Positions 4,889 to 14,830 of a stretch of 64,000 bases of DNA are shown here, piece by piece. The notes under the pieces are model-generated. The model made no database searches. It had not been told where the DNA came from and saw only the letters and a list, made by a program, of their open reading frames with translations. Source of the stretch: an uncultured Planctomycetaceae bacterium (GTDB taxonomy: Bacteria; Planctomycetota; Planctomycetia; Isosphaerales; Isosphaeraceae); NCBI GenBank assembly GCA_963833985.1, contig CAWIAD010000002.1, forward strand, positions 5,728,001-5,792,000, given 5' to 3'. Position numbers and translations under genes: made by a program. Each line of letters starts with the position of its first letter. Position 1 is the first letter of the stretch.

Positions 4889-7814
4889 ATGAGGTTTCTT
4901 CTTTATCTGTTCCTCTTGAACGCCCTCTGCGGTTTCGGCTTGCCGGTCAGTCGCGCGCGAGCCGACGAGCAGACCCTGCGTATCGAGGTTGACGCCCGTG
5001 AGCTGCCCCGGCGGCTGCTGCACACGCGTGTGCAGGTGGAGTGCAAGCCCGGACCCCTGGCGCTCTGGTATCCCAAGTGGATTCCGGGCACGCACGCCCC
5101 CAGCGGTCCGCTGGATTCGGTGGGTGGACTGAGGCTGAGGACCGCACAGGGCAAGGACATTCCCTGGCAGCGTGACGGGGTCGAACTCTATCGCCTGTGC
5201 TGCGAGGTGCCCGGCGGGACGCATGAGATTCAGGCCCTGCTCGACACAATCTGCAATGCGCCAAGCGTGGAGGCCAGCGGGCACCTGAGCTACGGGAACG
5301 CCTTGCTGGGCATCATCAACTGGCCCACGTGCCTGCTCTATCCCGAGGGCCCGACCGCCAGGCAAACGCGAGTTGCGCTGTCGCTGCGGCTGCCGCACGG
5401 CTGGAAATACGCCACGAGCCTCAAGATCCAGAGTGAGACCGAAGGAGTGATCCGGTTCGAGCCGGTCTCGCTCGCCACCCTGGCCGATTCACCGCTCATC
5501 GCCGGCACGCACCTGCGCACCATCCCGCTCGCGACCGGGCCCAATCCGCCCGCGTTCTTCCACTTGGCCTCCGAGTCTCCGGCCGCGCTCCAGCTTGCAC
5601 CAGCCACGGTGGACCTCTACAGCCGGGTGGTGCGCGAGGCCGGGGCGCTGTTCGGCGCCTGTCACTACGCCGAGTTCCATTTCCTGATCACGTGCAGCGA
5701 CGAGCTCGGCTACCTGGGGCTGGAGCACCTTTCGTCGAGCATCAACGGCGTGCGCGAGCGCGACCTCATCGACGGCACGAACCGCAGGGGCTGGGTCGCG
5801 AACCTCATCCCGCATGAATATGTCCATTCCTGGTGCGGCAAGTACCGGCGGCCCGCCGGACAGTGCACGGCCGACTTCCACACGCCCCAGCGCACTGCGC
5901 TGCTCTGGGTTTATGAGGGGCTGGGAGAGTACCTTGGCGAGCTGCTCATGGTGCGCAGCGGTCTGGTCTCGCCCAGCGCGTACCGCGAGAACCTGACCGC
6001 GTCGATCGGCGGCCTGATGCTGCGGACTGGCAGGAGCTGGCGCTCGTTGCAGGACACGGCCGTGGCATCGCATCTTCTTCGAGCCCCGAGCCTGAGCTGG
6101 AACGAGCTGCGCCGCGCCCAGGACTATTACCCGGAGGGCGGCGCTCATCTGGATGGAGGCCGACGCGATCATCCGGCAACGGAGCGACGGAGCACGCAGC
6201 CTGGATGATTTCTGCCGCAGGTTTCTGGGCCGGAACTCCTCCCCGGACGACACGGTGCCCTACGAGCTGCCGGAGATCATCACGCACCTCAAGGCAACGG
6301 CCAATTTCGACTGGGAGCGATTCCTCTCTGAGCGGACGAGCCGGCCGCTGGACGCACTGCCTCTGGAGCTGGTGGGCCGCCTCGGTTACCGCCTTCAGTA
6401 CGTTCCCGCGCCGCCGGATCAGGATCGCGGCATGGGCCGCGGCCGCACGGGCATCTCCGCTCAGCACTCGCTGGGCCTGAGCTTTGGCAATGAAGGCCAG
6501 ATCCTCGATATCGTCCCAGGGATGCCGGGTGATAAGGCTGGCCTGGCGCCGGGCATGAAGGTCATGGGTATTGGCGGCCGGCTCTTCAGCGCCCGGCGGC
6601 TTCAGGACGCGCTCGGTGAAAGCGTCGCCACCCGGCGCATCGAGCTGTTGGTCCTCGAGGGCGACCAGTTCAAGACGATCGTCATCCCCTACGCCGACGG
6701 CCCCAGGTATCTGACGATGGTTCGAGACGAATCGAAGCCAGACCTGCTGGGCCAGATCCTCAAGCCGATCGCGGAGCAGGAAAAGCCCATGCACTCGCCG
6801 CAGAGCGCGCGCCGTCCGGAAAGAGGTGCGTCCCTTCCCAGGGGTTACGTCGCCTATCGCGCGGAGAAACCGCTTCGTATCGACGGCAAGCTCGACGAGC
6901 CCGCCTGGCAGGCCGCACCCTGGACCGATGCGTTCGTGGATATCGAGGGCGACCGCAAACCGCATCCCAGGTATCCAACCCAGGCCAAAATGCTCTGGGA
7001 TGATCAGTACCTGTACGTCGCCGCCAGGCTCGACGAACCGCATGTCTGGGGCACGTTGACGAAGCATGACTCGGTCATCTTCCATGACAACGACTTCGAG
7101 GTCTTCATCGATCCCGACGGCGATCACCATGAATATTACGAGATCGAGATCAACGCGCTGGGCACCGAGTGGGACCTCTTCCTGAAGAAGCCCTATCGCG
7201 ACGGCGGACCGGCCGTGGACGCCTGGGAGATCCCCGGGCTCAGGTCGGCCGTCCATGTCGAGGGTACCTTGAACAACCCCGGCGACACGGATAGCTTCTG
7301 GGCGGTCGAGCTCGCGTTCCCCTGGAAAGTGCTGGCCGAGTATGCCCACCGTCCCGCGCCACCGCGCGACGGCGAGCAGTGGCGCATCAACTTCTCTCGC
7401 GTCGAGTGGCGGCACGAAGTGAAGGACGGGAAATACCGCAAGGTCCCGGACACGCCCGAGAACAACTGGGTCTGGTCGCCGCAGGGCGTCATCGACATGC
7501 ACCGGCCCGAGCGCTGGGGCGTCGTGCAGTTCTCCACCGCCGCGCCGGGAAGCATCACGTATCGACCCGATCCCGCGCTGCCGACCCGCGAGCGTCTGAT
7601 CGAGATCTATCACGCCCAGAAGCGGTTCCACGACAAGAACGGGCGCTGGGCCGAACGCAGCGACCAGCTCGACATTGCGGCCGCACCAGGGGAGAAGCCC
7701 GCCATCAAGGCCATGCCTGGTGGTTACGAGGCCGCTCTCACGTTCACACCCGAAGGGGGTGCGCAGCAAACCTGGACGATTCGCGAGGACTCGAGGATCA
7801 CGCGCAGGCCGTGA
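4889..7814 (+). CDS. M61 glycyl aminopeptidase + PDZ fused to a C-terminal CBM9-like sugar-binding domain; frameshift at about 6140
   Basis: LWYPKWIPGTH, GLEH, HEYVH zinc motif and WVYEG. An extra G at DYYPEG/ALIWMEAD joins ORFs 4715-6208 and 6153-7814. PDZ (PGDKAGLAPGMKV), then IDGKLDEPAW, KMLWDDQYLY, DNDFEVFID and WRINFSRVEW. Confidence 0.85.
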
Positions 7815-7821
7815 GGCGTTC

Positions 7822-10456
7822 TCATTCGGACCAGGCGAATTCGCCCGAATCGACGCCCCAGTCCATGCCAAAGAATCCGGCGGCCGCCAGGGCGGAATCT
7901 CCCAGTTCGGGCGCCCGGCGCGGAAGACCGTGCAGTCCGGATAGGCCACGCCCGACACGAAATAGGGGAGCCGAACCGTGAGCCGCAGCCCGGCCAGCCC
8001 CGTCCCGGACACGGCCGCCACCGAGGCCTTGTCGCTGTCGGGGCGAGACCGCAGGAACAGGCAGGCCAGGTCCTCGCCCGCAAGTTTGCGTTCTCCGATC
8101 CGCAGGCTGCCGCGCTTCACCTGAACGGGGCTGCCCGAGAGCAGCGCCGGCCAGGCCGCGTTGCTTTCGGAGTGGCCATAAAGGATCACGCTCCGGTCCT
8201 GGAACTCGGCCTTGCGGCCAGGGTCGAGAAACTGGCGGTCGGAGAGGAGATCGACCGAGCCATTGCCGCGGTACCAGAAGAGCTCGGCGTCGTAGCGGGC
8301 GCGAGCGAAGGACAGGGCGTTCTCCGGGGCGTTCCCCGCGGTGCCGTAGACGAGCACGAACCGATGGCGGAAGGCGTCCTTGAACGGTCCGTAACGATGC
8401 GGGCCCTTGAGCGCAGGGGATGGAGGCTCACTCAGGACAGACCAGCGCGGGCCATTGCGGACCATCCAGATCCGCAGCCCATTCTTCTCGCTCGAGACCC
8501 CGGCCGCGTGCAATGCCTGGCCGTCCAGGTTCAGCGAGACCGCCCCATCGCCACGGGGAAGCGCGCGCGTGAGGTCAAGCGCCAGGCGAGCCACATTCTC
8601 GGTGGTCCCCGTAAGGCGCCGCTGGCCGCGATCGAGCACCAGGTGCACAGCGCTGGGGGCCAGGCACCTGGTCTGGGCCTCGATTGTCGCCCAGCCAGAG
8701 CGGGGCGAGACTCCGGGACTCATCGTCACGAAATCAATCTTGCGCACGTCTTCCGGAGCAGGCAGCCTGCGCTCATTCAGGAATGCGAAGAGCGGAGGCC
8801 AGTCGACGCACGGAGAACCCCACCAGTGCCCGGCACCCGGCTGCTCGTGGTAGGCGAAGTCGGGATGAAACGTCCCCAGGACCTCGCGCATCCGCCGGGC
8901 CTGATCGACCGGGACGTTGTCGTCGGCGTCTCCGTGCAAGACGTAGACGCCGCGGGGAGCGAGGTTGCGGACCAGGGCGAGCGTGTCGCTGGGGTTACCC
9001 GCGCGTGCGACGAGCTGCTCGATCGCACTGGCCTTCTCGCTCTTCCGGGCCCCGGCATAGGACCACATGCTGATCCACCCCGCGCTGGGGGCGGCCACGG
9101 CGAACCGATCGGGGAACGTCACGCCCAGGTGCCAGGTTCCGTGTCCGCCCATGGAATGACCGGTCAGGTAGGTCCGGAGCGGATCTGTCTGGAGCTCCTG
9201 CCGCGCGCGTTCCAGCACCTCGATCGCGTCGAGGCGACCCCAGTCTTCCCAGTCGAAGCCGTAGGGGCGCCGGTTCGTGGGCGCGACCAGGTGCAGGCCC
9301 GGTTTGCCCGCATAGGCTTCGGCCTGGCCGATCGCTTCCACCGCCGCACCGTGGAGGGTCAGCACCAGACCGGGCCGGGCTGGTGGCGCCGGGGTCTGCG
9401 GTCGCGGGCCCGCCTCCGCACTCTGCTCAGGACGCGCGGGAAGCAGCGCGTAGTACTGGACGCTGCCGTCGACCGCGCTGCGGAACGTCCGCTTGCGCGC
9501 CTGGTCGGGCTGGCGAACGCGCAGTTTGAGGCTTGCGCGATCGAGTGTTTCGACTGGTGACTCACTGGTGCGCTGAATCCGCAAAGCGAGTGTCACGGAG
9601 GCGTCGCTGGTTTCTCGGGGCGCCGGGCCGGCAATCTGAAAGCCGACTTTACGGAGGGAACAGGGAGGAAGGGAAGGAACCCTGGTCTCGACGGGCTCCG
9701 CGGCGGCAAGCTGGCTCTGGATCGTCAGGTGGTCCAGAGCCTGCTCGGAACAGTTCATGACGATGATGGCCGCCTCGGCTTGCACCGGCTCGTCCGCCAC
9801 GAGATCCGGGGTGGTCAGATCGCCCGGGTCTAGCTCGGCGTCCGCTCGCGAGGGGCGGAGGCGGGCCGTCACGCGCCCTCCGCGGCCCGCCTGGAAGAGG
9901 AGGTGGTTCGACCCGCGCGACAAACGCACTGGCAGACACACATAACCGTGCGCATAGGGATCGCCCACGCGAGGCTCACCTTCCAGGTAAACCAGCGAGT
10001 GGCCTGCGGCCTCGAGCACCATGATTCGCTGGAAATCCGAGTGGACCTGGACAGCCAGGTAGCCTGCGCGGCCCGGGACCTCGAAGCTGCCTGCTGCGCT
10101 GGCCTCAATAGCTTTCCAGGTCCGCGTTTGCCCGTTTTTGAAGGCAACCCCCTGATCCTTCGCGGGCATGGTCCAGTTTCCGGCGACCATCTGCGCCGCC
10201 ACGGGATCCATGCTCATGAGCGACCGATCCACCCGTCCGGGCGTCTCGACGCCAGCGCCAGCCGGGGAAGAACGGGCGGTGGCGCCGAAGCCGGCGCGGA
10301 TGGATCGGGTGGCGAGACGGCCTGGAGGTCAATGGCCAGCACGAGCGTCAGGGCAAGCGCGAGGGCCGCGCTCCGGACGAGCTGGAGGCAGGCTGCCAGA
10401 GCGTCCAGGCGACTTCGAGAGCCGCGATGATTCGAAAGCCGGTGGTTACAAAGCAT
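7822..10456 (-). CDS. Secreted alpha/beta-hydrolase (S9-like peptidase/esterase); frameshifts near 10260 and 7900
   Basis: VLTLHGA, TGHSMGGHG nucleophile motif, LHGDADDNVP and GAGHWWG. The true C-terminus LAAAGFFGMDWGVDSGEFAWSE* is in another frame and ends at 7822. The signal peptide is in ORF 10214-10462; start approximate. Confidence 0.8.
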
Positions 10457-10888: not shown

Positions 10889-11362
10889 TCACTCGGCCAG
10901 ACGCCGGTACTTGCCCGCGTGGTAGAGAAGCGGCAGACCGGTTTGCAAGGCTCCCGCGACGATCTCGCCGATGAAGATCTCATGGTCGCCGCCGGGAAGG
11001 ATGTCGACCACGCGGCAATCAACGTAGGCCAGGCACTCGGCCAGGATCGGAGCCCCGGTTGCCTCGGTCTGAACCGACAGCCCCGTGAAGTCCTTCGGAC
11101 CAGGTGTCGCGAACCGCCGCGAGACCTCCTCCTGGTCCAGCCGCAGAATGTTCACCGCGAAGCAGCGGTTGATCCTGAGAAACTCCAGCGAGTGTGCCCT
11201 CTTGTCCACGGCCACCAGCAGCAGGGGCGGATCCAGCGAGAGTGAGGCGATCGCGTTGGCCGTCAAACCGTGCGGGCCGGCCGCACCATCGGTGGTCACC
11301 ACGGTCACGCCCGTGGCGAACTGCCCCATGATTCTCCGCTGTAGTGCCGGATCGAATGCCAT
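10889..11362 (-). CDS. Flavin reductase family protein (HpaC/RutF-like)
   Basis: MGQFATGVTVVT, SLSLDPPLLL, GGDHEIFIGE and PLLYH motifs. Confidence 0.95.
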   Translation of the reverse strand: MAFDPALQRRIMGQFATGVTVVTTDGAAGPHGLTANAIASLSLDPPLLLVAVDKRAHSLEFLRINRCFAVNILRLDQEEVSRRFATPGPKDFTGLSVQTEATGAPILAECLAYVDCRVVDILPGGDHEIFIGEIVAGALQTGLPLLYHAGKYRRLAE

Positions 11363-11438
11363 GCGACGACTCACCCTCCAACCACGGACCGGGAACCGAT
11401 ACACGCCCCCAGGCCGCCCCTGGCGCGTGCGTCACATT

Positions 11439-11579
11439 TTACACGATGGGTGTTCCTGGGAGCGACCGCTGCCGTCGCAACCGGTACTTCAGACCGGTCA
11501 CGAAAAAGCAAGCCGCGGCAACGCTCCCGAAGATCAATGGCGCGAAGCGAGGGAACCAGGCCATCGGCAGGATCGCCAC
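11439..11579 (-). pseudogene. Orphan 3' end of the Ser/Thr kinase gene (possibly a translated 46-aa mini-ORF)
   Basis: Translates to (V)AILPMAWFPRFAPLIFGSVAAACFFVTGLKYRLRRQRSLPGTPIV*, versus the kinase C-terminus AILPMTWFPQFAPLIFGTVASACFFVTGMKYRLRRQRTDP*. Confidence 0.9.
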
Positions 11580-12085
11580 TACGGCTTCGCGGCCGCCCGG
11601 ATGGTGCTCAGGGGAAGTAAGAGCCGCAGCTCGTCGGCCGTGAACGGCATGAACCCGAATCGCTCATAGAAGATCCTGGCCTGGGCGTCGAGAGCATCGA
11701 CGACCACCGCATGGATTCCCACCTTCTCCGATAGGTCGAGCGATCGTGTCATCGCATCGCGGAGCAGGAAGCCGCCCAGCCCTCTGCCTTGCAGGTCATG
11801 ATCGACGGCCAGCCGTGCGAGCAGAATGACTGGCACGGCGTGCCGGGGGAGCTTTCTGGCACGGCCCGCGGGCAGGTTTTCTACCTGAACCGCTCCGCAG
11901 GCGAGGGTGTAGTAACCCAGCACGCGCCGGTCGTCTCCCTGGAGCCCCACATAGGTCCGCCCCAGGTCCCGCTTCTCGTATTGTGTGACCAGCACGTGGA
12001 GAAAGTCGTTGAGCGCGGGCTTGCCACAGTCGAAGCCCGCTCGCACGTGGCTTCGGTCGAGCCGCACGATGCGCCACTCATCCAC
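11579..12085 (-). CDS. GNAT acetyltransferase toxin (AtaT/TacT-like)
   Basis: FDCGKPALNDFL, VLGYYTL, PVILLARLAVD, QGRGLG, VVVDALD and FYERFGF motifs. Confidence 0.92.
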   Translation of the reverse strand: MDEWRIVRLDRSHVRAGFDCGKPALNDFLHVLVTQYEKRDLGRTYVGLQGDDRRVLGYYTLACGAVQVENLPAGRARKLPRHAVPVILLARLAVDHDLQGRGLGGFLLRDAMTRSLDLSEKVGIHAVVVDALDAQARIFYERFGFMPFTADELRLLLPLSTIRAAAKP

Positions 12086-12356
12086 GCTTCCTAGCCTTTC
12101 CTGCCATCAGTCCGCGCAGCCTGGCATTGGGCTTCGGCGGATGATCGAGCGCTTGCAAGAACGACTCGCGATCACGATCTGATAGAACTATCGGCGTTTC
12201 TTCCACAAAACGGATCTCGTCTTCGGGGATCACCCGTGCCTTGCGGATGCGAAGTTCGTTCTCGCTCACCTGCTCGATGATGACAGTCGAGTTGGCGAAC
12301 GTTTTTGGCAGGCTCACGCGGCCCTTCGCGTCGGTCGATCTGGTTTCCAGACTCAT
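12078..12356 (-). CDS. Antitoxin: AbrB/MraZ-like N-terminus + DUF1778-like C-terminus
   Basis: N-terminus TDAKGRVSLPK; C-terminus IVLSDRDRESFLQALDHPPKPNARLRGLM. Overlaps the toxin start; AGAGG RBS. Confidence 0.85.
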   Translation of the reverse strand: MSLETRSTDAKGRVSLPKTFANSTVIIEQVSENELRIRKARVIPEDEIRFVEETPIVLSDRDRESFLQALDHPPKPNARLRGLMAGKARKRG

Positions 12357-12389
12357 TCTCGCCTCTTTCGATTGGTTGCGATCCAATTG

Positions 12390-12435
12390 ATCATAGGACC
12401 AGCAGAGATTGTGGGCAAGTGGGAATTTCCCACAA
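12390..12435 (-). promoter_or_regulatory. TA promoter and palindromic operator
   Basis: Minus strand TTGCCC (12413-12418), 17 nt, TATGAT (12390-12395). Inverted repeats TTGTGGG (12409-12415) / CCCACAA (12429-12435) and GTGGGA-ATT-TCCCAC (12419-12433). Confidence 0.75.
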
Positions 12436-12446
12436 AGCCGGGACAT

Positions 12447-14195
12447 TCAAGGATCAGTGCGCTGGCGCCGCAGCCGGTACTTCATACCGGTCACGAAAAA
12501 GCAGGCCGAGGCGACCGTGCCGAAGATTAACGGCGCGAACTGGGGAAACCAGGTCATCGGCAGGATCGCCAGCATCACCGCGGCCGCCTGGAAGTAGTAG
12601 AAGCCCGAGAGCAGACCCGCCTTGACCATGAACAACATACTGTTGGTCACCGCGATCATGGCGATGAGCGACAGCACGGGCAAACCCAGCAGCCACTCCA
12701 CCAGGAAAACCAGGTTGATCGCGACGATGCCCGAGCCCCAGATGTGCGCGAGCTGACGCTCGACGAAGCTGATGGGGCCACCCTGGCGGCGCAGTGCCCA
12801 GAAGAGCGCGGCCCATGCGCCCAGGCCCACGGTGAAGAGCCCCACGTACGGCCAACGGGCCGTCACTCCGGCCAGATGCAGGGCATTGGTGGCTCCGAAG
12901 AAGATGAGCAGGGCCACGCTGTGATAGATCCAGAGCTGGCCCCAGTTCTCGAGCACGCCGGCGTGGTGCGTCTCTCCCAGCAGCCGTGCTCCCAGGGCGC
13001 GCAGGCTGGTGGAGCGCGCGGAGACCGGTTCGTCGCGAAGGAATGCCTCGAGGTCCTCCGCCAGTGCCGCGGCGCTCGGGTACCGCAGCCCGGGCTGCTT
13101 TTGCAGGCAGCGCAAGGTGATCATCTCGAGGTCCGGACTGACGCGCGGGTTCAGGACCCGCGGCGGTAAAGGATCTTGCTCCAGCACCAGCATCACCGTT
13201 TCCACCGGGCTGGCGGCCTGGAACGGCGGCCGACCGGTGAGCATGTGGTAGAGAATCGCTCCCAGACTGTAGACATCGCAGGCCGGCCCGAGCGGACCGC
13301 GGCTTCGCAGGGCGCGGGCCTGCTCGGGAGGCATGTAACCCGGCGTGCCGACGATCGCACCGGACGGCGTGAGCGAGTCCTCGGCGTGGAGGTCCAGCCG
13401 CTTGGCCAGGCCGAAGTCGCTGACGTAGCCGTGGCCCTCAGTGTCGATCAGGATGTTGGATGGTTTGAGGTCGCGGTGCAGGATCCCGTGGTCGTGCGCA
13501 TAGTGGATGGCCCGGCAGATGGGAACCAGCAGGCGGGCCGCGTCCAGACCCGGCAGCGGGCCATCGGCCAGTTTCCGCGCCAGAGTGGTTCCCTTGATGT
13601 ACTGCATCGTGAAGAACGGCTGACCCTCGTGCTCGCCCACCTGGAGCACAGGGACGATGTGCGGATGCGCGAGCTGCTCGGCGGCCATCGCTTCCACGCG
13701 GAACCGCTCCACCTCCTGCGCCTTCGAGCCCACCCCGCGCAGCAGACGCTTCAGGGCCACGATGCGCCCGCGCCCGAGCTCGCGGGCGCGGTAGACCACC
13801 CCCATGCCGCCCTGGCCCAGCTCTTCGAAGACCTGATAGTCACCAAAGAAACGAGGCGACTCGGAGGATGCGAGCCGGTCCGACGATGCGTCGGCCGCCG
13901 GCGCGTGCAGGGCCTGCTCGCTCACGGGCCGTCGTGCCGGCCCCGCGCGTGCCAGCGATTCGGTGACCCGGATCGTTGCCCAGAGCGAGCGCAGCTCATC
14001 GGCCAGGCGGGGATATTCGCTGGCAATCGCCTCCACGTCGGCGTTTTCTCCCCGGCGGGCGGCTGCTGTCAGCTCATCGATCAGGTGCACCAGGAGCGAC
14101 GCGTCCGACTCGGTCAGGGGCAGCGGCTCGGCTGCCGATCCGCCCGCTCGATCGGGTGTTTCCATGGCGTGCGCTCCGTGAGACAGGGTCAGCAA
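12447..14195 (-). CDS. Ser/Thr protein kinase with C-terminal multi-pass membrane domain
   Basis: LGQGGMGVVY, VALK, HRDLKPSN, DFGLAK and GTPGYMPPEQ; about 6 C-terminal hydrophobic segments. Confidence 0.95.
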   Translation of the reverse strand: MLTLSHGAHAMETPDRAGGSAAEPLPLTESDASLLVHLIDELTAAARRGENADVEAIASEYPRLADELRSLWATIRVTESLARAGPARRPVSEQALHAPAADASSDRLASSESPRFFGDYQVFEELGQGGMGVVYRARELGRGRIVALKRLLRGVGSKAQEVERFRVEAMAAEQLAHPHIVPVLQVGEHEGQPFFTMQYIKGTTLARKLADGPLPGLDAARLLVPICRAIHYAHDHGILHRDLKPSNILIDTEGHGYVSDFGLAKRLDLHAEDSLTPSGAIVGTPGYMPPEQARALRSRGPLGPACDVYSLGAILYHMLTGRPPFQAASPVETVMLVLEQDPLPPRVLNPRVSPDLEMITLRCLQKQPGLRYPSAAALAEDLEAFLRDEPVSARSTSLRALGARLLGETHHAGVLENWGQLWIYHSVALLIFFGATNALHLAGVTARWPYVGLFTVGLGAWAALFWALRRQGGPISFVERQLAHIWGSGIVAINLVFLVEWLLGLPVLSLIAMIAVTNSMLFMVKAGLLSGFYYFQAAAVMLAILPMTWFPQFAPLIFGTVASACFFVTGMKYRLRRQRTDP

Positions 14196-14830
14196 AGTGA
14201 CGGGGCTTCGCCCAGGATCGAGCGCAGACGGCGGAGAGCGCGCAGATGGCGCATGCCGGCCGCGGCCTCGCTCAACCGCAGCGTCTGCGCGGCTTCGCTG
14301 TTGGAGAGCTGCTCGAAGTGGCGGAGCACGATGATCTCGCGGTCGGCATCGTCAAGACGATCAAGGGCCATCCGGAACCGGCGCTGGAGCTCTTCCCGCA
14401 ACGCCTCGGCCGCGGGAGTGAGCGCGGGATCGCAAAGCTGGCTAGCCAGGTCGAGCGCGGAGCGGTCGGCGAGCGCGCCTCGGGCGGAATTCCAGGCCAG
14501 CGGCTGCTCACGATCCAGGCTGCGCTTGCCCGCGCCGCGGTGCCGGCGGTGGGCGTCGATCACATGGTCGTGGGCAATCTGGCGGAGCCAGAGATGAAAT
14601 GGCAGGGCGGGGTTGCGCAGGTAGTCGCCAAGTCTCTGGCTGGCCTTCAGCAGCACATCCTGAACGATGTCGCTGGCGTCGACCCGCCGCCCCAGCGCCC
14701 GGTCCAGCCTCAGCCCGATCATCTGCCGCAGGGCAGGGCGGTGACGCTCCCACAGCTCGTCCGCGGCACCGGAATCGGACTGCTGGACCTGCTTCAAGAG
14801 CCGCTCGGTTTCACGGGCGTCTGGCCACAT
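14189..14830 (-). CDS. Planctomycete-type ECF sigma-70 factor, kinase-linked
   Basis: RRVDASDIVQD, FHLWLRQIA and DREIIVLRHFEQLSNSEAA; overlaps the kinase start. Confidence 0.93.
   Translation of the reverse strand: MWPDARETERLLKQVQQSDSGAADELWERHRPALRQMIGLRLDRALGRRVDASDIVQDVLLKASQRLGDYLRNPALPFHLWLRQIAHDHVIDAHRRHRGAGKRSLDREQPLAWNSARGALADRSALDLASQLCDPALTPAAEALREELQRRFRMALDRLDDADREIIVLRHFEQLSNSEAAQTLRLSEAAAGMRHLRALRRLRSILGEAPSLC

What the first reader, a model, noticed from the sequence alone, without database searches (positions are those of the whole stretch)
11439..12571. TA cassette inserted by 3'-end replacement of a kinase gene, with no recombinase
Seen: a 993-bp unit (new kinase 3' end + stop, promoter/operator, antitoxin, GNAT toxin) lies between two ungapped 112-bp copies of the kinase 3' end, 95/112 identical. 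The 17 differences give only 5 conservative amino-acid changes in 37 codons (A/T, R/Q, S/T, A/S, L/M); the rest are synonymous. Each copy has its own tail and stop (TDP* versus SLPGTPIV*). The orphan copy starts on the base right after the toxin TAG, and no integrase, transposase or terminal inverted repeat is present. Inference: both copies evolved as functional gene ends in different lineages, so this is not a decaying local duplication. The cassette probably arrived carrying an orthologous gene end that keeps the target intact, either by homology-facilitated illegitimate recombination or by an undescribed stop-codon-precise cassette mechanism. Recombination between the repeats could also excise it and swap kinase C-termini.
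Basis: partly seen in the sequence, partly recalled or inferred. Interest (0 to 1): 0.85.

Follow-up and report, generated by a model that had tools for sequence, protein, structure and literature searches.

The report
Toxin-antitoxin pair hitchhiking on gene tail
A two-gene toxin-antitoxin module sits between a working and a dead copy of the last 112 bases of a kinase gene in a planctomycete; it likely arrived from a related species attached to that species' copy of the gene end and was likely spliced in by the cell's own recombination, a scar type already described for restriction-enzyme genes and seen at many other toxin-antitoxin sites of this genome.

Summary
Confirmed: 112-bp direct repeats (95/112, 993 bp apart) flank a minimal promoter-antitoxin-GNAT toxin unit with no recombinase. 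The copies differ like orthologs of two species (dN/dS 0.13). Four relatives show the empty site. Two metagenome contigs of a sister species carry the same TA operator exactly 13 nt after this kinase's stop, with no orphan. That is the predicted donor-type allele. Best reading (0.55): homologous recombination in the kinase plus an illegitimate join at the toxin end (HFIR-like). It is not a one-off. 15 of 51 TA-family genes in this genome lie between such low-copy repeats, against 39 of 1517 small genes. It is not stop-codon-precise: cargo-to-orphan gaps run from 0 to over 1000 nt, with no shared junction motif. The orphan's 'own tail' is likely read-through into the flavin-reductase promoter box. 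The architecture matches published 'insertion with long target duplication' (restriction-modification cargo), here with TA cargo and two-species copies. This scan noted the pattern before in other genomes and elsewhere in this one. Side finding: the antitoxin appears to join an AbrB/MazE-like N-terminus to a TacA C-terminus.

The parts
10889..11362 (-). Flavin reductase-like gene; ancestral downstream neighbour of the kinase
   Evidence: PF01613 E 8e-44; directly follows the kinase in G002, G003, G005, G024
11436..11447 (-). Conserved ATCGTGTAAAAT box, likely the -10 element of the flavin reductase promoter; supplies the orphan's TAA
   Evidence: Similar box found upstream of the flavin reductase in 13 of 13 genomes, 73 nt before the start in five; promoter role inferred
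11439..11466 (-). Orphan tail (R)SLPGTPIV*; GGA at 11456-11454 aligns with the kinase TGA, so likely stop loss and read-through
   Evidence: Codon alignment; 82 of 120 homologs stop 8-9 residues after the G-x-K-Y motif, none at 14
11467..11578 (-). Orphan 112-bp copy of the kinase 3' end (likely the displaced resident end); starts flush after the toxin stop
11579..12085 (-). GNAT toxin of the TacT/AtaT/KacT type, 168 aa, intact QGRGLG acetyl-CoA motif
   Evidence: Pfam GNAT; 15 PDB matches E 1e-21 to 9e-28 including KacT and TacT/AtaT-complex entries; motif
11588..11597 (-). 10-bp microhomology GGCGGCCGCG in the toxin end, 9 nt before the junction; matches kinase 12579-12588, 7 nt before the repeat
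   Evidence: a match of 10 or more in 0.015% of random coding 25-mer pairs
12078..12356 (-). Antitoxin, 92 aa: TacA (DUF1778) C-terminal half, AbrB/MazE-like N-terminal half (weak); overlaps the toxin by 8 nt
   Evidence: PF08681 residues 53-85; 30 of 30 family members match TacA1, 25 of 30 match MazE_antitoxin at E<=0.1, best 6e-4; weak MraZ hits
12390..12418 (-). Predicted sigma-70-type promoter (TTGCCC-17-TATGAT) of the TA operon
   Evidence: region conserved across TA copies
12419..12433 (.). Palindromic operator-like site GTGGGAAATTCCCAC, 13 nt after the kinase stop
   Evidence: Conserved in 11 aligned TA copies; same 13-nt spacing after the kinase in L058, L059
12447..12459 (-). Live kinase tail (R)TDP* with stop at the family's usual position
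12460..12571 (-). Live 112-bp copy of the kinase 3' end (likely donor-derived)
12447..14165 (-). Ser/Thr kinase, 572 aa, with hydrophobic C-terminal region; target gene, left intact
   Evidence: PF00069 E 8e-48
12579..12588 (-). Kinase-side copy of the 10-bp microhomology
14189..14830 (-). ECF-type sigma factor upstream of the kinase (context, syntenic in relatives)

Best explanation
The cassette is a minimal type II toxin-antitoxin operon that likely entered on a DNA fragment from a related species in which it already lay just behind the same kinase gene, and was likely integrated by host recombination: an inferred homologous crossover in the kinase on one side and an inferred illegitimate join at the toxin end on the other. 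The donor's DNA beyond the toxin had no counterpart in the recipient, so the second join fell inside the recipient's own kinase, 112 bp before the point where the two ends stop matching. The incoming gene end became the live one and the resident end was left behind as an orphan in front of the flavin reductase promoter. Shown: anatomy, two-lineage origin of the copies, empty sites, a kinase-plus-TA allele without orphan in a sister species, many like scars in this genome. Inferred: direction of transfer, crossover position, uptake by natural transformation, RecA dependence, toxin activity. Such joins would fall anywhere; only those that leave the target gene whole survive, which explains the bias to gene ends without a dedicated enzyme.
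For: dN/dS 0.134 between the copies, with divergence equal to that between species. Empty sites in G002, G003, G005, G024. L058/L059 carry the TA operator 13 nt after the kinase TGA, the same spacing as here, against 68-2753 nt in 15 other TA loci measured. They have no orphan within 715 and 3994 nt, and unrelated DNA follows. L056 is 99.8% identical to L058 over 3600 nt but lacks the TA there; 3 of their 8 differences are in the last 19 nt of the kinase, so gene-end sequence travels with the TA. L060 has the same operator 203 nt after the stop. The TA is about as diverged from these relatives (84-89%) as the kinase is (about 85%). A 10-bp GC-rich microhomology lies beside the junction. 15 of 51 TA genes versus 39 of 1517 small genes lie between low-copy repeats at most 3 kb apart, p 2e-11. 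14 low-divergence scars show 49 synonymous against 29 non-synonymous differences, p 7e-12 against neutral. comEC, dprA and a comM/yifB-like gene are present. The same TA family sits between 384-bp copies of a methylmalonyl-CoA mutase 3' end in G011.
Against: No close relative (over 86%) was found, so trees cannot say which copy is resident; the 112-bp tree is unresolved and the kinase shows no mosaic step. The microhomology is 7/9 nt from the join, not at it. Recombination at about 15% divergence is rare. The L058/L059 TA remnant is closer to G011's TA (95%) than to this one (88.6%), and the two 13-nt spacers share only 6 letters. The comEC match falls in two frames, an assembly indel or a broken gene. 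Most copies of this TA family show no gene-end repeat: 7 of 33 loci have any enclosing repeat and 2 of 33 a partial gene-end copy. No reads span the locus.
Confidence: 0.55

Rival explanations
1. Campbell-type integration: the donor fragment (gene end + TA) first circularised at the toxin-end junction, then crossed over once within the 112 bp, as proposed for rhs tip displacement.
For: Gives exactly this layout; proposed for rhs orphans (PMC2935791, passages). Two Ku matches in the genome could support end joining. Two of 16 ungapped scars have an unusually long identical run.
Against: The longest identical run here is 18 bp, as expected by chance (mean 19.8). Across 16 scars there is no overall excess of identical runs (combined p 0.19). 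112 bp at 85% identity is a poor RecA substrate (established knowledge).
Confidence: 0.18
2. Same mechanism, mirror direction: kinase + TA was resident, and the incoming piece was the orphan end plus flavin reductase region, anchored downstream and joined illegitimately at the toxin stop.
For: The kinase-TA linkage looks old (same 13-nt spacing in a sister species, matching divergence). The flavin reductase of this genome has a long branch (0.18).
Against: Kinase then flavin reductase is the arrangement in four relatives of two genera, so orphan + reductase is the simpler resident state. Both the kinase and the reductase of this genome branch as sister to the same clade.
Confidence: 0.12
3. 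A dedicated trans-acting enzyme (integrase, HUH/Y1 transposase or unknown) moves TA cassettes precisely between stop codons.
For: Both ends are tight here (13 nt and 0 nt). The same operator sits behind this kinase in three lineages. In G011 a palindromic REP-like element lies 7 nt before the orphan. TA genes are about 11-fold enriched between repeats.
Against: Cargo-to-orphan gaps are 0 to 1337 nt and only this locus of 26 is flush. No shared motif by eye at 20 junctions, and the G011 palindrome core occurs only 3 times in this genome, none here. Repeat lengths span 40-897 bp and targets are unrelated genes. No integrase among 86 proteins at 20 loci, though 3 loci contain a transposase.
Confidence: 0.05
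4. Local duplication at insertion (true target duplication, slippage or break repair) or a truncated tandem paralog, followed by decay.
For: Simple; many scars in the genome are 95-100% identical. The orphan likely lost its stop.
Against: Neutral decay predicts about 3 non-synonymous per synonymous change. Observed 6:11, with most amino-acid changes on the live copy, and 29:49 in 14 young scars. No relative among 12 loci has a close tandem paralog; the only second kinase nearby (G010) is 40% identical and has no match to the C-terminal region.
Confidence: 0.04
5. Assembly chimera of two strains or species in a metagenome-assembled genome.
For: The genome shows indel-type splits, with 3.9% contamination. 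No read support was obtained.
Against: The unit is under 1.2 kb in a 6.6-Mb contig. The same layout occurs in G011 and at 3 of 39 PIN-toxin loci of near-complete genomes G004, G105, G123, G124. An artefact would not favour TA cargo.
Confidence: 0.04

Closest known systems
Insertion with long target duplication of restriction-modification genes (Furuta, Abe, Kobayashi 2010, PMC2853133; passages and sections 14, 15, 18 read)
   Same: Small addictive cargo, no mobile-element gene, unique direct repeats over 30 bp of variable length, often spanning a start or stop so the target gene stays whole, empty site in relatives, many cases in competent species.
   Different: Cargo is a TA operon with no DNA nuclease, so the paper's suggested link to DNA breakage by the cargo does not apply. 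Copies are 85% alike with a purifying-selection signature, so they come from two genomes rather than one duplicated target; listed RM cases were about 93-100% alike in the table rows seen.
[quoted passage not shown]
   Same: One-sided homology, foreign DNA joined at the far end, short microhomology near the join, no recombinase, transformation genes present.
   Different: Shown experimentally only in other phyla. The anchor and RecA dependence are inferred here, and the microhomology is adjacent to the join, not at it.
C-terminal displacement of rhs genes and T6SS effector-immunity arrays (PMC2935791, PMC5361080; passages read)
   Same: A new 3' end becomes live and the old one is left downstream as an orphan of variable length.
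   Different: There the exchanged tip is the selected cargo and the loci are specialised arrays. Here an ordinary signalling gene is only the handle and the tips are near-equivalent.
Integrative elements that restore a target gene's 3' end (phage and island attP/attB; recalled, not from a call)
   Same: Target gene kept whole by an incoming gene end; old end displaced to the far side.
   Different: No integrase, no fixed att core, variable repeat lengths, many unrelated targets.
TacAT / AtaRT / KacAT GNAT toxin-antitoxin family
   Same: Toxin homologous over its length with the acetyl-CoA motif; antitoxin C-terminus of DUF1778/TacA type; antitoxin-first operon with palindromic operator.
   Different: The antitoxin N-terminus matches AbrB/MazE/MraZ-type domains weakly rather than the ribbon-helix-helix seen in the canonical TacA elsewhere in this genome.

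Membership tests
Insertion with long target duplication (Furuta 2010 criteria) | Insert carries restriction and modification gene homologs | tested here: not met
   Cargo is antitoxin + GNAT toxin only
Insertion with long target duplication (Furuta 2010 criteria) | Insert under 20 kb without other mobile-element genes | tested here: met
   881 bp between the copies, two ORFs
Insertion with long target duplication (Furuta 2010 criteria) | Direct repeat over 30 bp, unique in the genome | tested here: met
   112 bp, two copies only
Insertion with long target duplication (Furuta 2010 criteria) | Empty site with a single copy in a related genome | tested here: met
   G002, G003, G005, G024; other species, not the same species
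Homology-facilitated illegitimate recombination | Donor with homology on one side only | tested here: inconclusive
   L058/L059 show an allele of that type (kinase-TA-unrelated DNA), but they are not the actual donor
Homology-facilitated illegitimate recombination | Join within a short microhomology | tested here: inconclusive
   10-bp match 7/9 nt before the join; mean best match near 20 junctions 4.75 against 3.65 permuted, open to edge-definition bias; the donor's sequence beyond the toxin is unknown
Homology-facilitated illegitimate recombination | Natural transformation machinery | tested here: inconclusive
   comEC (match in two frames), dprA and a comM/yifB-like gene found; competence itself not shown
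Homology-facilitated illegitimate recombination | RecA dependence | not testable with these tools
   Needs an experiment
Site-specific integrative element (att-type) | Integrase in or beside the element | tested here: not met
   None in the cassette; nearest tyrosine recombinase about 180 kb away; serine recombinases were not searched genome-wide
Site-specific integrative element (att-type) | Fixed core sequence shared by insertion sites | tested here: not met
   No shared motif seen at 20 junctions; inspection by eye plus five motif counts
Insertion sequence / MITE | Terminal inverted repeats and short target duplication | tested here: not met
   None at the cassette ends among the 25 longest of 57 inverted pairs; the TA has no second copy in the genome
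TacAT/AtaRT/KacAT | GNAT toxin homologous to TacT/AtaT/KacT with acetyl-CoA motif | tested here: met
TacAT/AtaRT/KacAT | DUF1778/TacA toxin-binding C-terminus | tested here: met
   PF08681 over cut-off, 30 of 30 members; top fold matches are TacA3 and AtaR peptides, all with E above 2
TacAT/AtaRT/KacAT | Ribbon-helix-helix DNA-binding N-terminus | tested here: not met
   No RHH family hit in 30 members; MazE/AbrB-like in 25 of 30 below cut-off; the model has a beta-hairpin at 25-39, not helices (pTM 0.32)
TacAT/AtaRT/KacAT | Acetylates aminoacyl-tRNA and is neutralised by the antitoxin | not testable with these tools
   Needs an assay

The most novel reading that the evidence does not exclude
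In Isosphaeraceae, toxin-antitoxin operons spread between species chiefly without any mobile element, by riding on the conserved end of whichever gene they sit behind. Host transformation and recombination capture them at up to 15-20% divergence, nearly a third of TA loci still bear the orphan-end scar, and addiction then locks the insert against excision. The orphan ends form a readable record of which alleles were resident. This locus, with donor-type, empty and captured alleles all on record, would be a test case for how stand-alone chromosomal TA modules move, and its antitoxin would be an undescribed AbrB-TacA hybrid partner for a GNAT toxin.
Probability: 0.3. Interest if true: 0.65.

Novelty: new variant of a known kind. 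Interest (0 to 1): 0.4.

Why it matters
How chromosomal TA modules with no transposase or integrase keep appearing at new sites is an open question (own knowledge). Here the three states of one site are visible: empty, TA behind the gene, and TA captured with an orphan. A genome-wide count shows TA genes about 11-fold enriched between such repeats. It extends 'insertion with long target duplication' from restriction systems to nuclease-free addictive cargo, and shows that the 'duplication' is two alleles from different genomes. That points to host recombination as the engine. It is not a new machine, and the scan has recorded the general pattern many times.

Tried and rejected
Reads: one run listed, share 0.08, no RNA holder listed. 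Its contigs did not cover the TA or the orphan, so nothing can be concluded. Assigning resident versus donor copy by trees and sliding identity failed for lack of relatives above 86%. An empty allele ending SLPGTPIV was not found in 12 loci, 18 metagenome loci or the best 120 of 607 protein hits. No genome among 121 of the family had kinase and TA adjacent at DNA-match level. Stop-codon precision was rejected. A shared junction motif and the REP-like palindrome as general driver were rejected. A crossover tract inside the repeats was not seen. The antitoxin fold search gave no match at E<=0.001, and the atlas returned only its own TacA-labelled clusters. A dimer prediction of the antitoxin N-terminus was not run, so the AbrB-type fold stays a sequence-level lead. 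Literature searches with no hit: TA + partial duplication + flanked by direct repeats + homologous recombination; TA + stand-alone + mobile + target duplication; GNAT toxin + AbrB + DUF1778; GNAT + TacT + MraZ; orphan + duplicated 3 + integrase-independent. One search gave two reviews; passages of one (PMC8138530) note mixed DNA-binding folds in VapB but no AbrB-GNAT pair; the other was seen only in the listing. The library lacks most subscription papers, and no supplements were read, so absence in print is not established. No earlier scan note matched the antitoxin sequence.
Full report
OBSERVATION. The repeats are as described: 11467-11578 and 12460-12571, ungapped, 95 of 112 identical, 993 apart. 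On the minus strand the order is ECF sigma factor, Ser/Thr kinase (572 aa, stop at 12447), 13 nt, a palindromic operator overlapping a predicted promoter, a 92-aa antitoxin, a 168-aa GNAT toxin, the orphan copy flush after the toxin TAG, and a flavin reductase. Neither the repeat nor the TA has another full copy in the 10.16-Mb genome. The nearest of 13 tyrosine-recombinase matches is about 180 kb away. Homologs place the organism in the Isosphaeraceae, Planctomycetota (record titles).

TWO WORKING ALLELES, NOT A DECAYING COPY. Over 36 codons pS is 0.405 and pN 0.074 (dN/dS 0.134, p 1.7e-4). The two copies are 95/112 alike, the same distance as to orthologs in G002, G003, G006 and G010 (89-96). 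Against outgroups, three of the five amino-acid changes (R>Q, A>S, L>M) are on the live copy, one is on the orphan and one is ambiguous. The orphan reads TCG CTC CCA GGA where the kinase reads ACT GAT CCT TGA, so its ancestral stop was likely lost. The TAA it now reaches is part of an ATCGTGTA(A/C)AAT-type box found before the flavin reductase in 13 of 13 genomes examined. 82 of 120 homologs stop 8-9 residues after the G-x-K-Y motif, like the live copy, and none at 14, like the orphan. Whether the short spacing between orphan and box is native or a later deletion is unknown.

RELATIVES. Of 40 related genomes searched, the kinase is followed directly by the flavin reductase in G002, G003, G005 and G024. 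G006 and G010 have other inserts of about 0.7 and 10 kb at the same spot without an orphan; in others the two genes are apart. G010's insert holds a second sigma-kinase pair, but it is 40% identical and has no match to the C-terminal region, so it is not the orphan's source. A metagenome scan gave 18 kinase loci. Two of them, L058 and L059 (near-identical to each other, so one observation; kinase about 86% aa in L058), have the same TA operator exactly 13 nt after the kinase TGA. It is followed by an internally deleted TA (toxin residues 123-168 remain), no orphan in 715 and 3994 nt, and unrelated DNA. In 15 other TA loci where it could be measured, the operator lies 68-2753 nt from the previous called gene. 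L056 is 99.8% identical to L058 over 3600 nt, lacks the TA at that spot, and 3 of the 8 differences fall in the last 19 nt of the kinase. L060 has the operator alone 203 nt after the stop. So a kinase-end + TA allele with one-sided homology to an empty recipient exists in nature. Against over-reading: that remnant is closer to G011's TA (95%) than to this one (88.6%), the 13-nt spacers share 6 letters, and trees do not resolve which copy is resident.

THE TA FAMILY ELSEWHERE. 33 loci were found in the genome collection, at many unrelated sites. Seven have some enclosing direct repeat. On inspection two are partial gene-end copies. L074, the same locus as L021 in G011, has 384 bp at 96% of a methylmalonyl-CoA mutase 3' end, with 14 differences and 3 amino-acid changes, and the orphan 59 nt after the toxin stop. 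L105 has 61 bp. Two more are whole or long gene copies, two are intergenic, and the rest show none. The scar is thus recurrent but not obligatory.

GENOME-WIDE CENSUS. With my own simple gene caller (8344 genes) and local self-BLAST, 38 repeat pairs have a live 3' end upstream and an orphan downstream. The other three orientations have 12, 16 and 18; all classes include noise from repeat proteins and IS pieces. 31 of the 38 passed a low-copy filter. Of 51 PIN, ParE, DUF433 and TacA matches, 15 lie between low-copy repeats at most 3 kb apart, against 39 of 1517 genes of 80-180 aa (p 2e-11). All 3 TacA loci do. The control is all small genes, not accessory genes only, so part of the excess may reflect mobility in general. 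For 26 pairs with cargo, the gap from the nearest cargo gene to the orphan is 0 here, 10 and 12 in two, overlapping in one Uma2 array, and 33-1337 in the rest: no stop-codon precision. Pooled over 40 pairs, pN/pS is 0.33. For 14 pairs at 91% identity or more with cargo and at least one coding difference, 49 differences are synonymous and 29 non-synonymous, against 26% synonymous expected (p 7e-12). I picked these, leaving out three without cargo, three without coding differences and the long yifB pair, which alone has 54:19. Pfam on 86 proteins at 20 of these loci found no integrase, a transposase inside 3 loci, and unrelated targets including fabF-like, selB, tadA-like, dprA, comEC and comM/yifB. 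Junctions share no motif by eye. The best short match just outside the repeat averages 4.75 nt against 3.65 permuted; here it is 10 nt (GGCGGCCGCG, 9 nt before the join in the toxin, 7 in the kinase), reached by 0.015% of random coding pairs. In near-complete genomes G004, G105, G123 and G124, 4 of 39 PIN loci fetched (of 49 listed; none from G125) are repeat-enclosed and 3 are gene-end orphans, so the layout is not peculiar to this assembly.

MECHANISM. Best reading (0.55): a fragment from a related species carrying kinase end + TA paired with the resident kinase and crossed over upstream. Lacking homology beyond the toxin, it was joined illegitimately inside the resident gene, perhaps helped by the adjacent microhomology. 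The target stayed whole, which is why such events survive at gene ends. comEC (match split over two frames), dprA and a comM-like gene make transformation a plausible route. Crossover site, direction, uptake route and RecA dependence are inferred. A circle intermediate (0.18) gives the same map, but the longest identical run is 18 bp, as expected by chance, and 16 scars show no excess of such runs. The mirror direction (0.12), a dedicated enzyme (0.05), local duplication (0.04) and a chimera (0.04) are less likely. Excision between repeats at 85% identity should be rare and would be penalised if the toxin is active (inference). A programmed swap of kinase tails has no support.

COMPARISON WITH WHAT IS KNOWN. 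Furuta et al. 2010 (PMC2853133; passages and sections 14, 15, 18 read) describe restriction-modification genes inserted with long, variable direct repeats and no mobile gene. The repeats often span a start or stop and so leave the target intact, mostly in competent species. This locus meets all their criteria but the RM cargo, so it works like that class without being a member. Orphan 3' ends by displacement are described for rhs (PMC2935791, passages) and T6SS arrays, where HFIR is proposed (PMC5361080, passages). HFIR itself is known here second-hand. My searches found no paper on TA cargo in this layout, within a library that lacks most subscription journals. Earlier notes of this scan report the pattern in other genomes and about twenty inserts in this one; they are leads, and my counts are my own.

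THE TA ITSELF. The toxin matches TacT/AtaT/KacT-type structures at E 1e-21 to 9e-28 and has the QGRGLG motif. The antitoxin's C-terminal half is TacA-like in 30 of 30 aligned members. Its N-terminal half matches MazE/AbrB (25 of 30 at E<=0.1, best 6e-4, below cut-off) and weakly MraZ, with no RHH hit, unlike the canonical TacA at C2:2738110. The model shows a beta-hairpin there but is of low overall confidence (pTM 0.32), and the fold search was not significant. This is a lead for a hybrid antitoxin, not a result.

VERDICT. A real feature. New variant of a known kind; interest 0.4.

Noticed in passing
window 12078-12356 (-): The antitoxin family appears to combine an AbrB/MazE/MraZ-like N-terminus with a TacA (DUF1778) C-terminus, paired with a GNAT toxin; no such pairing turned up in three paper searches.
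   Followed up: partly
G000 C1:1163058-1169315; C2:3094558-3103700; C2:3851786-3858048: Three transformation-related genes (dprA, comEC, comM/yifB-like) each carry stacked orphan 3' ends with cargo between them; dprA and comEC have two orphans each.
   Followed up: partly
L021:5398-5455 (G011); L056 about 70-110 nt after the kinase stop: REP-like palindrome GGGGACACCATA...TATGGTGTCC lies 7 nt before the orphan in G011 and in the kinase-downstream slot of L056; rare in this genome.
   Followed up: partly
L040, L041, L047, L053, L056, L057, L060: The kinase-flavin reductase gap is an insertion hot spot holding different DNA in many relatives; G006's insert appears bounded by an 8-bp overlap.
   Followed up: partly
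L087 and L084: The same TA family sits between two long copies (2.8 kb at 89%; 2.1 kb at 82%) of a large gene, possibly the long extreme of the same process.
   Followed up: no
G000 C2:1376238: An orphan end lacks about 30 nt relative to the live gene just inside its 5' edge, suggesting orphans erode by short deletions.
   Followed up: no
window 4889-6208 / 6153-7814 and 5946-10232: Reading frames look split or fused by single-base indels, consistent with long-read assembly errors.
   Followed up: no
G000 C2:3507461-3511747: A 134-bp 5' end of a 698-aa gene with an Hsp70-like start (recalled motif) occurs three times with small genes between: a 5'-end version of the scar.
   Followed up: no
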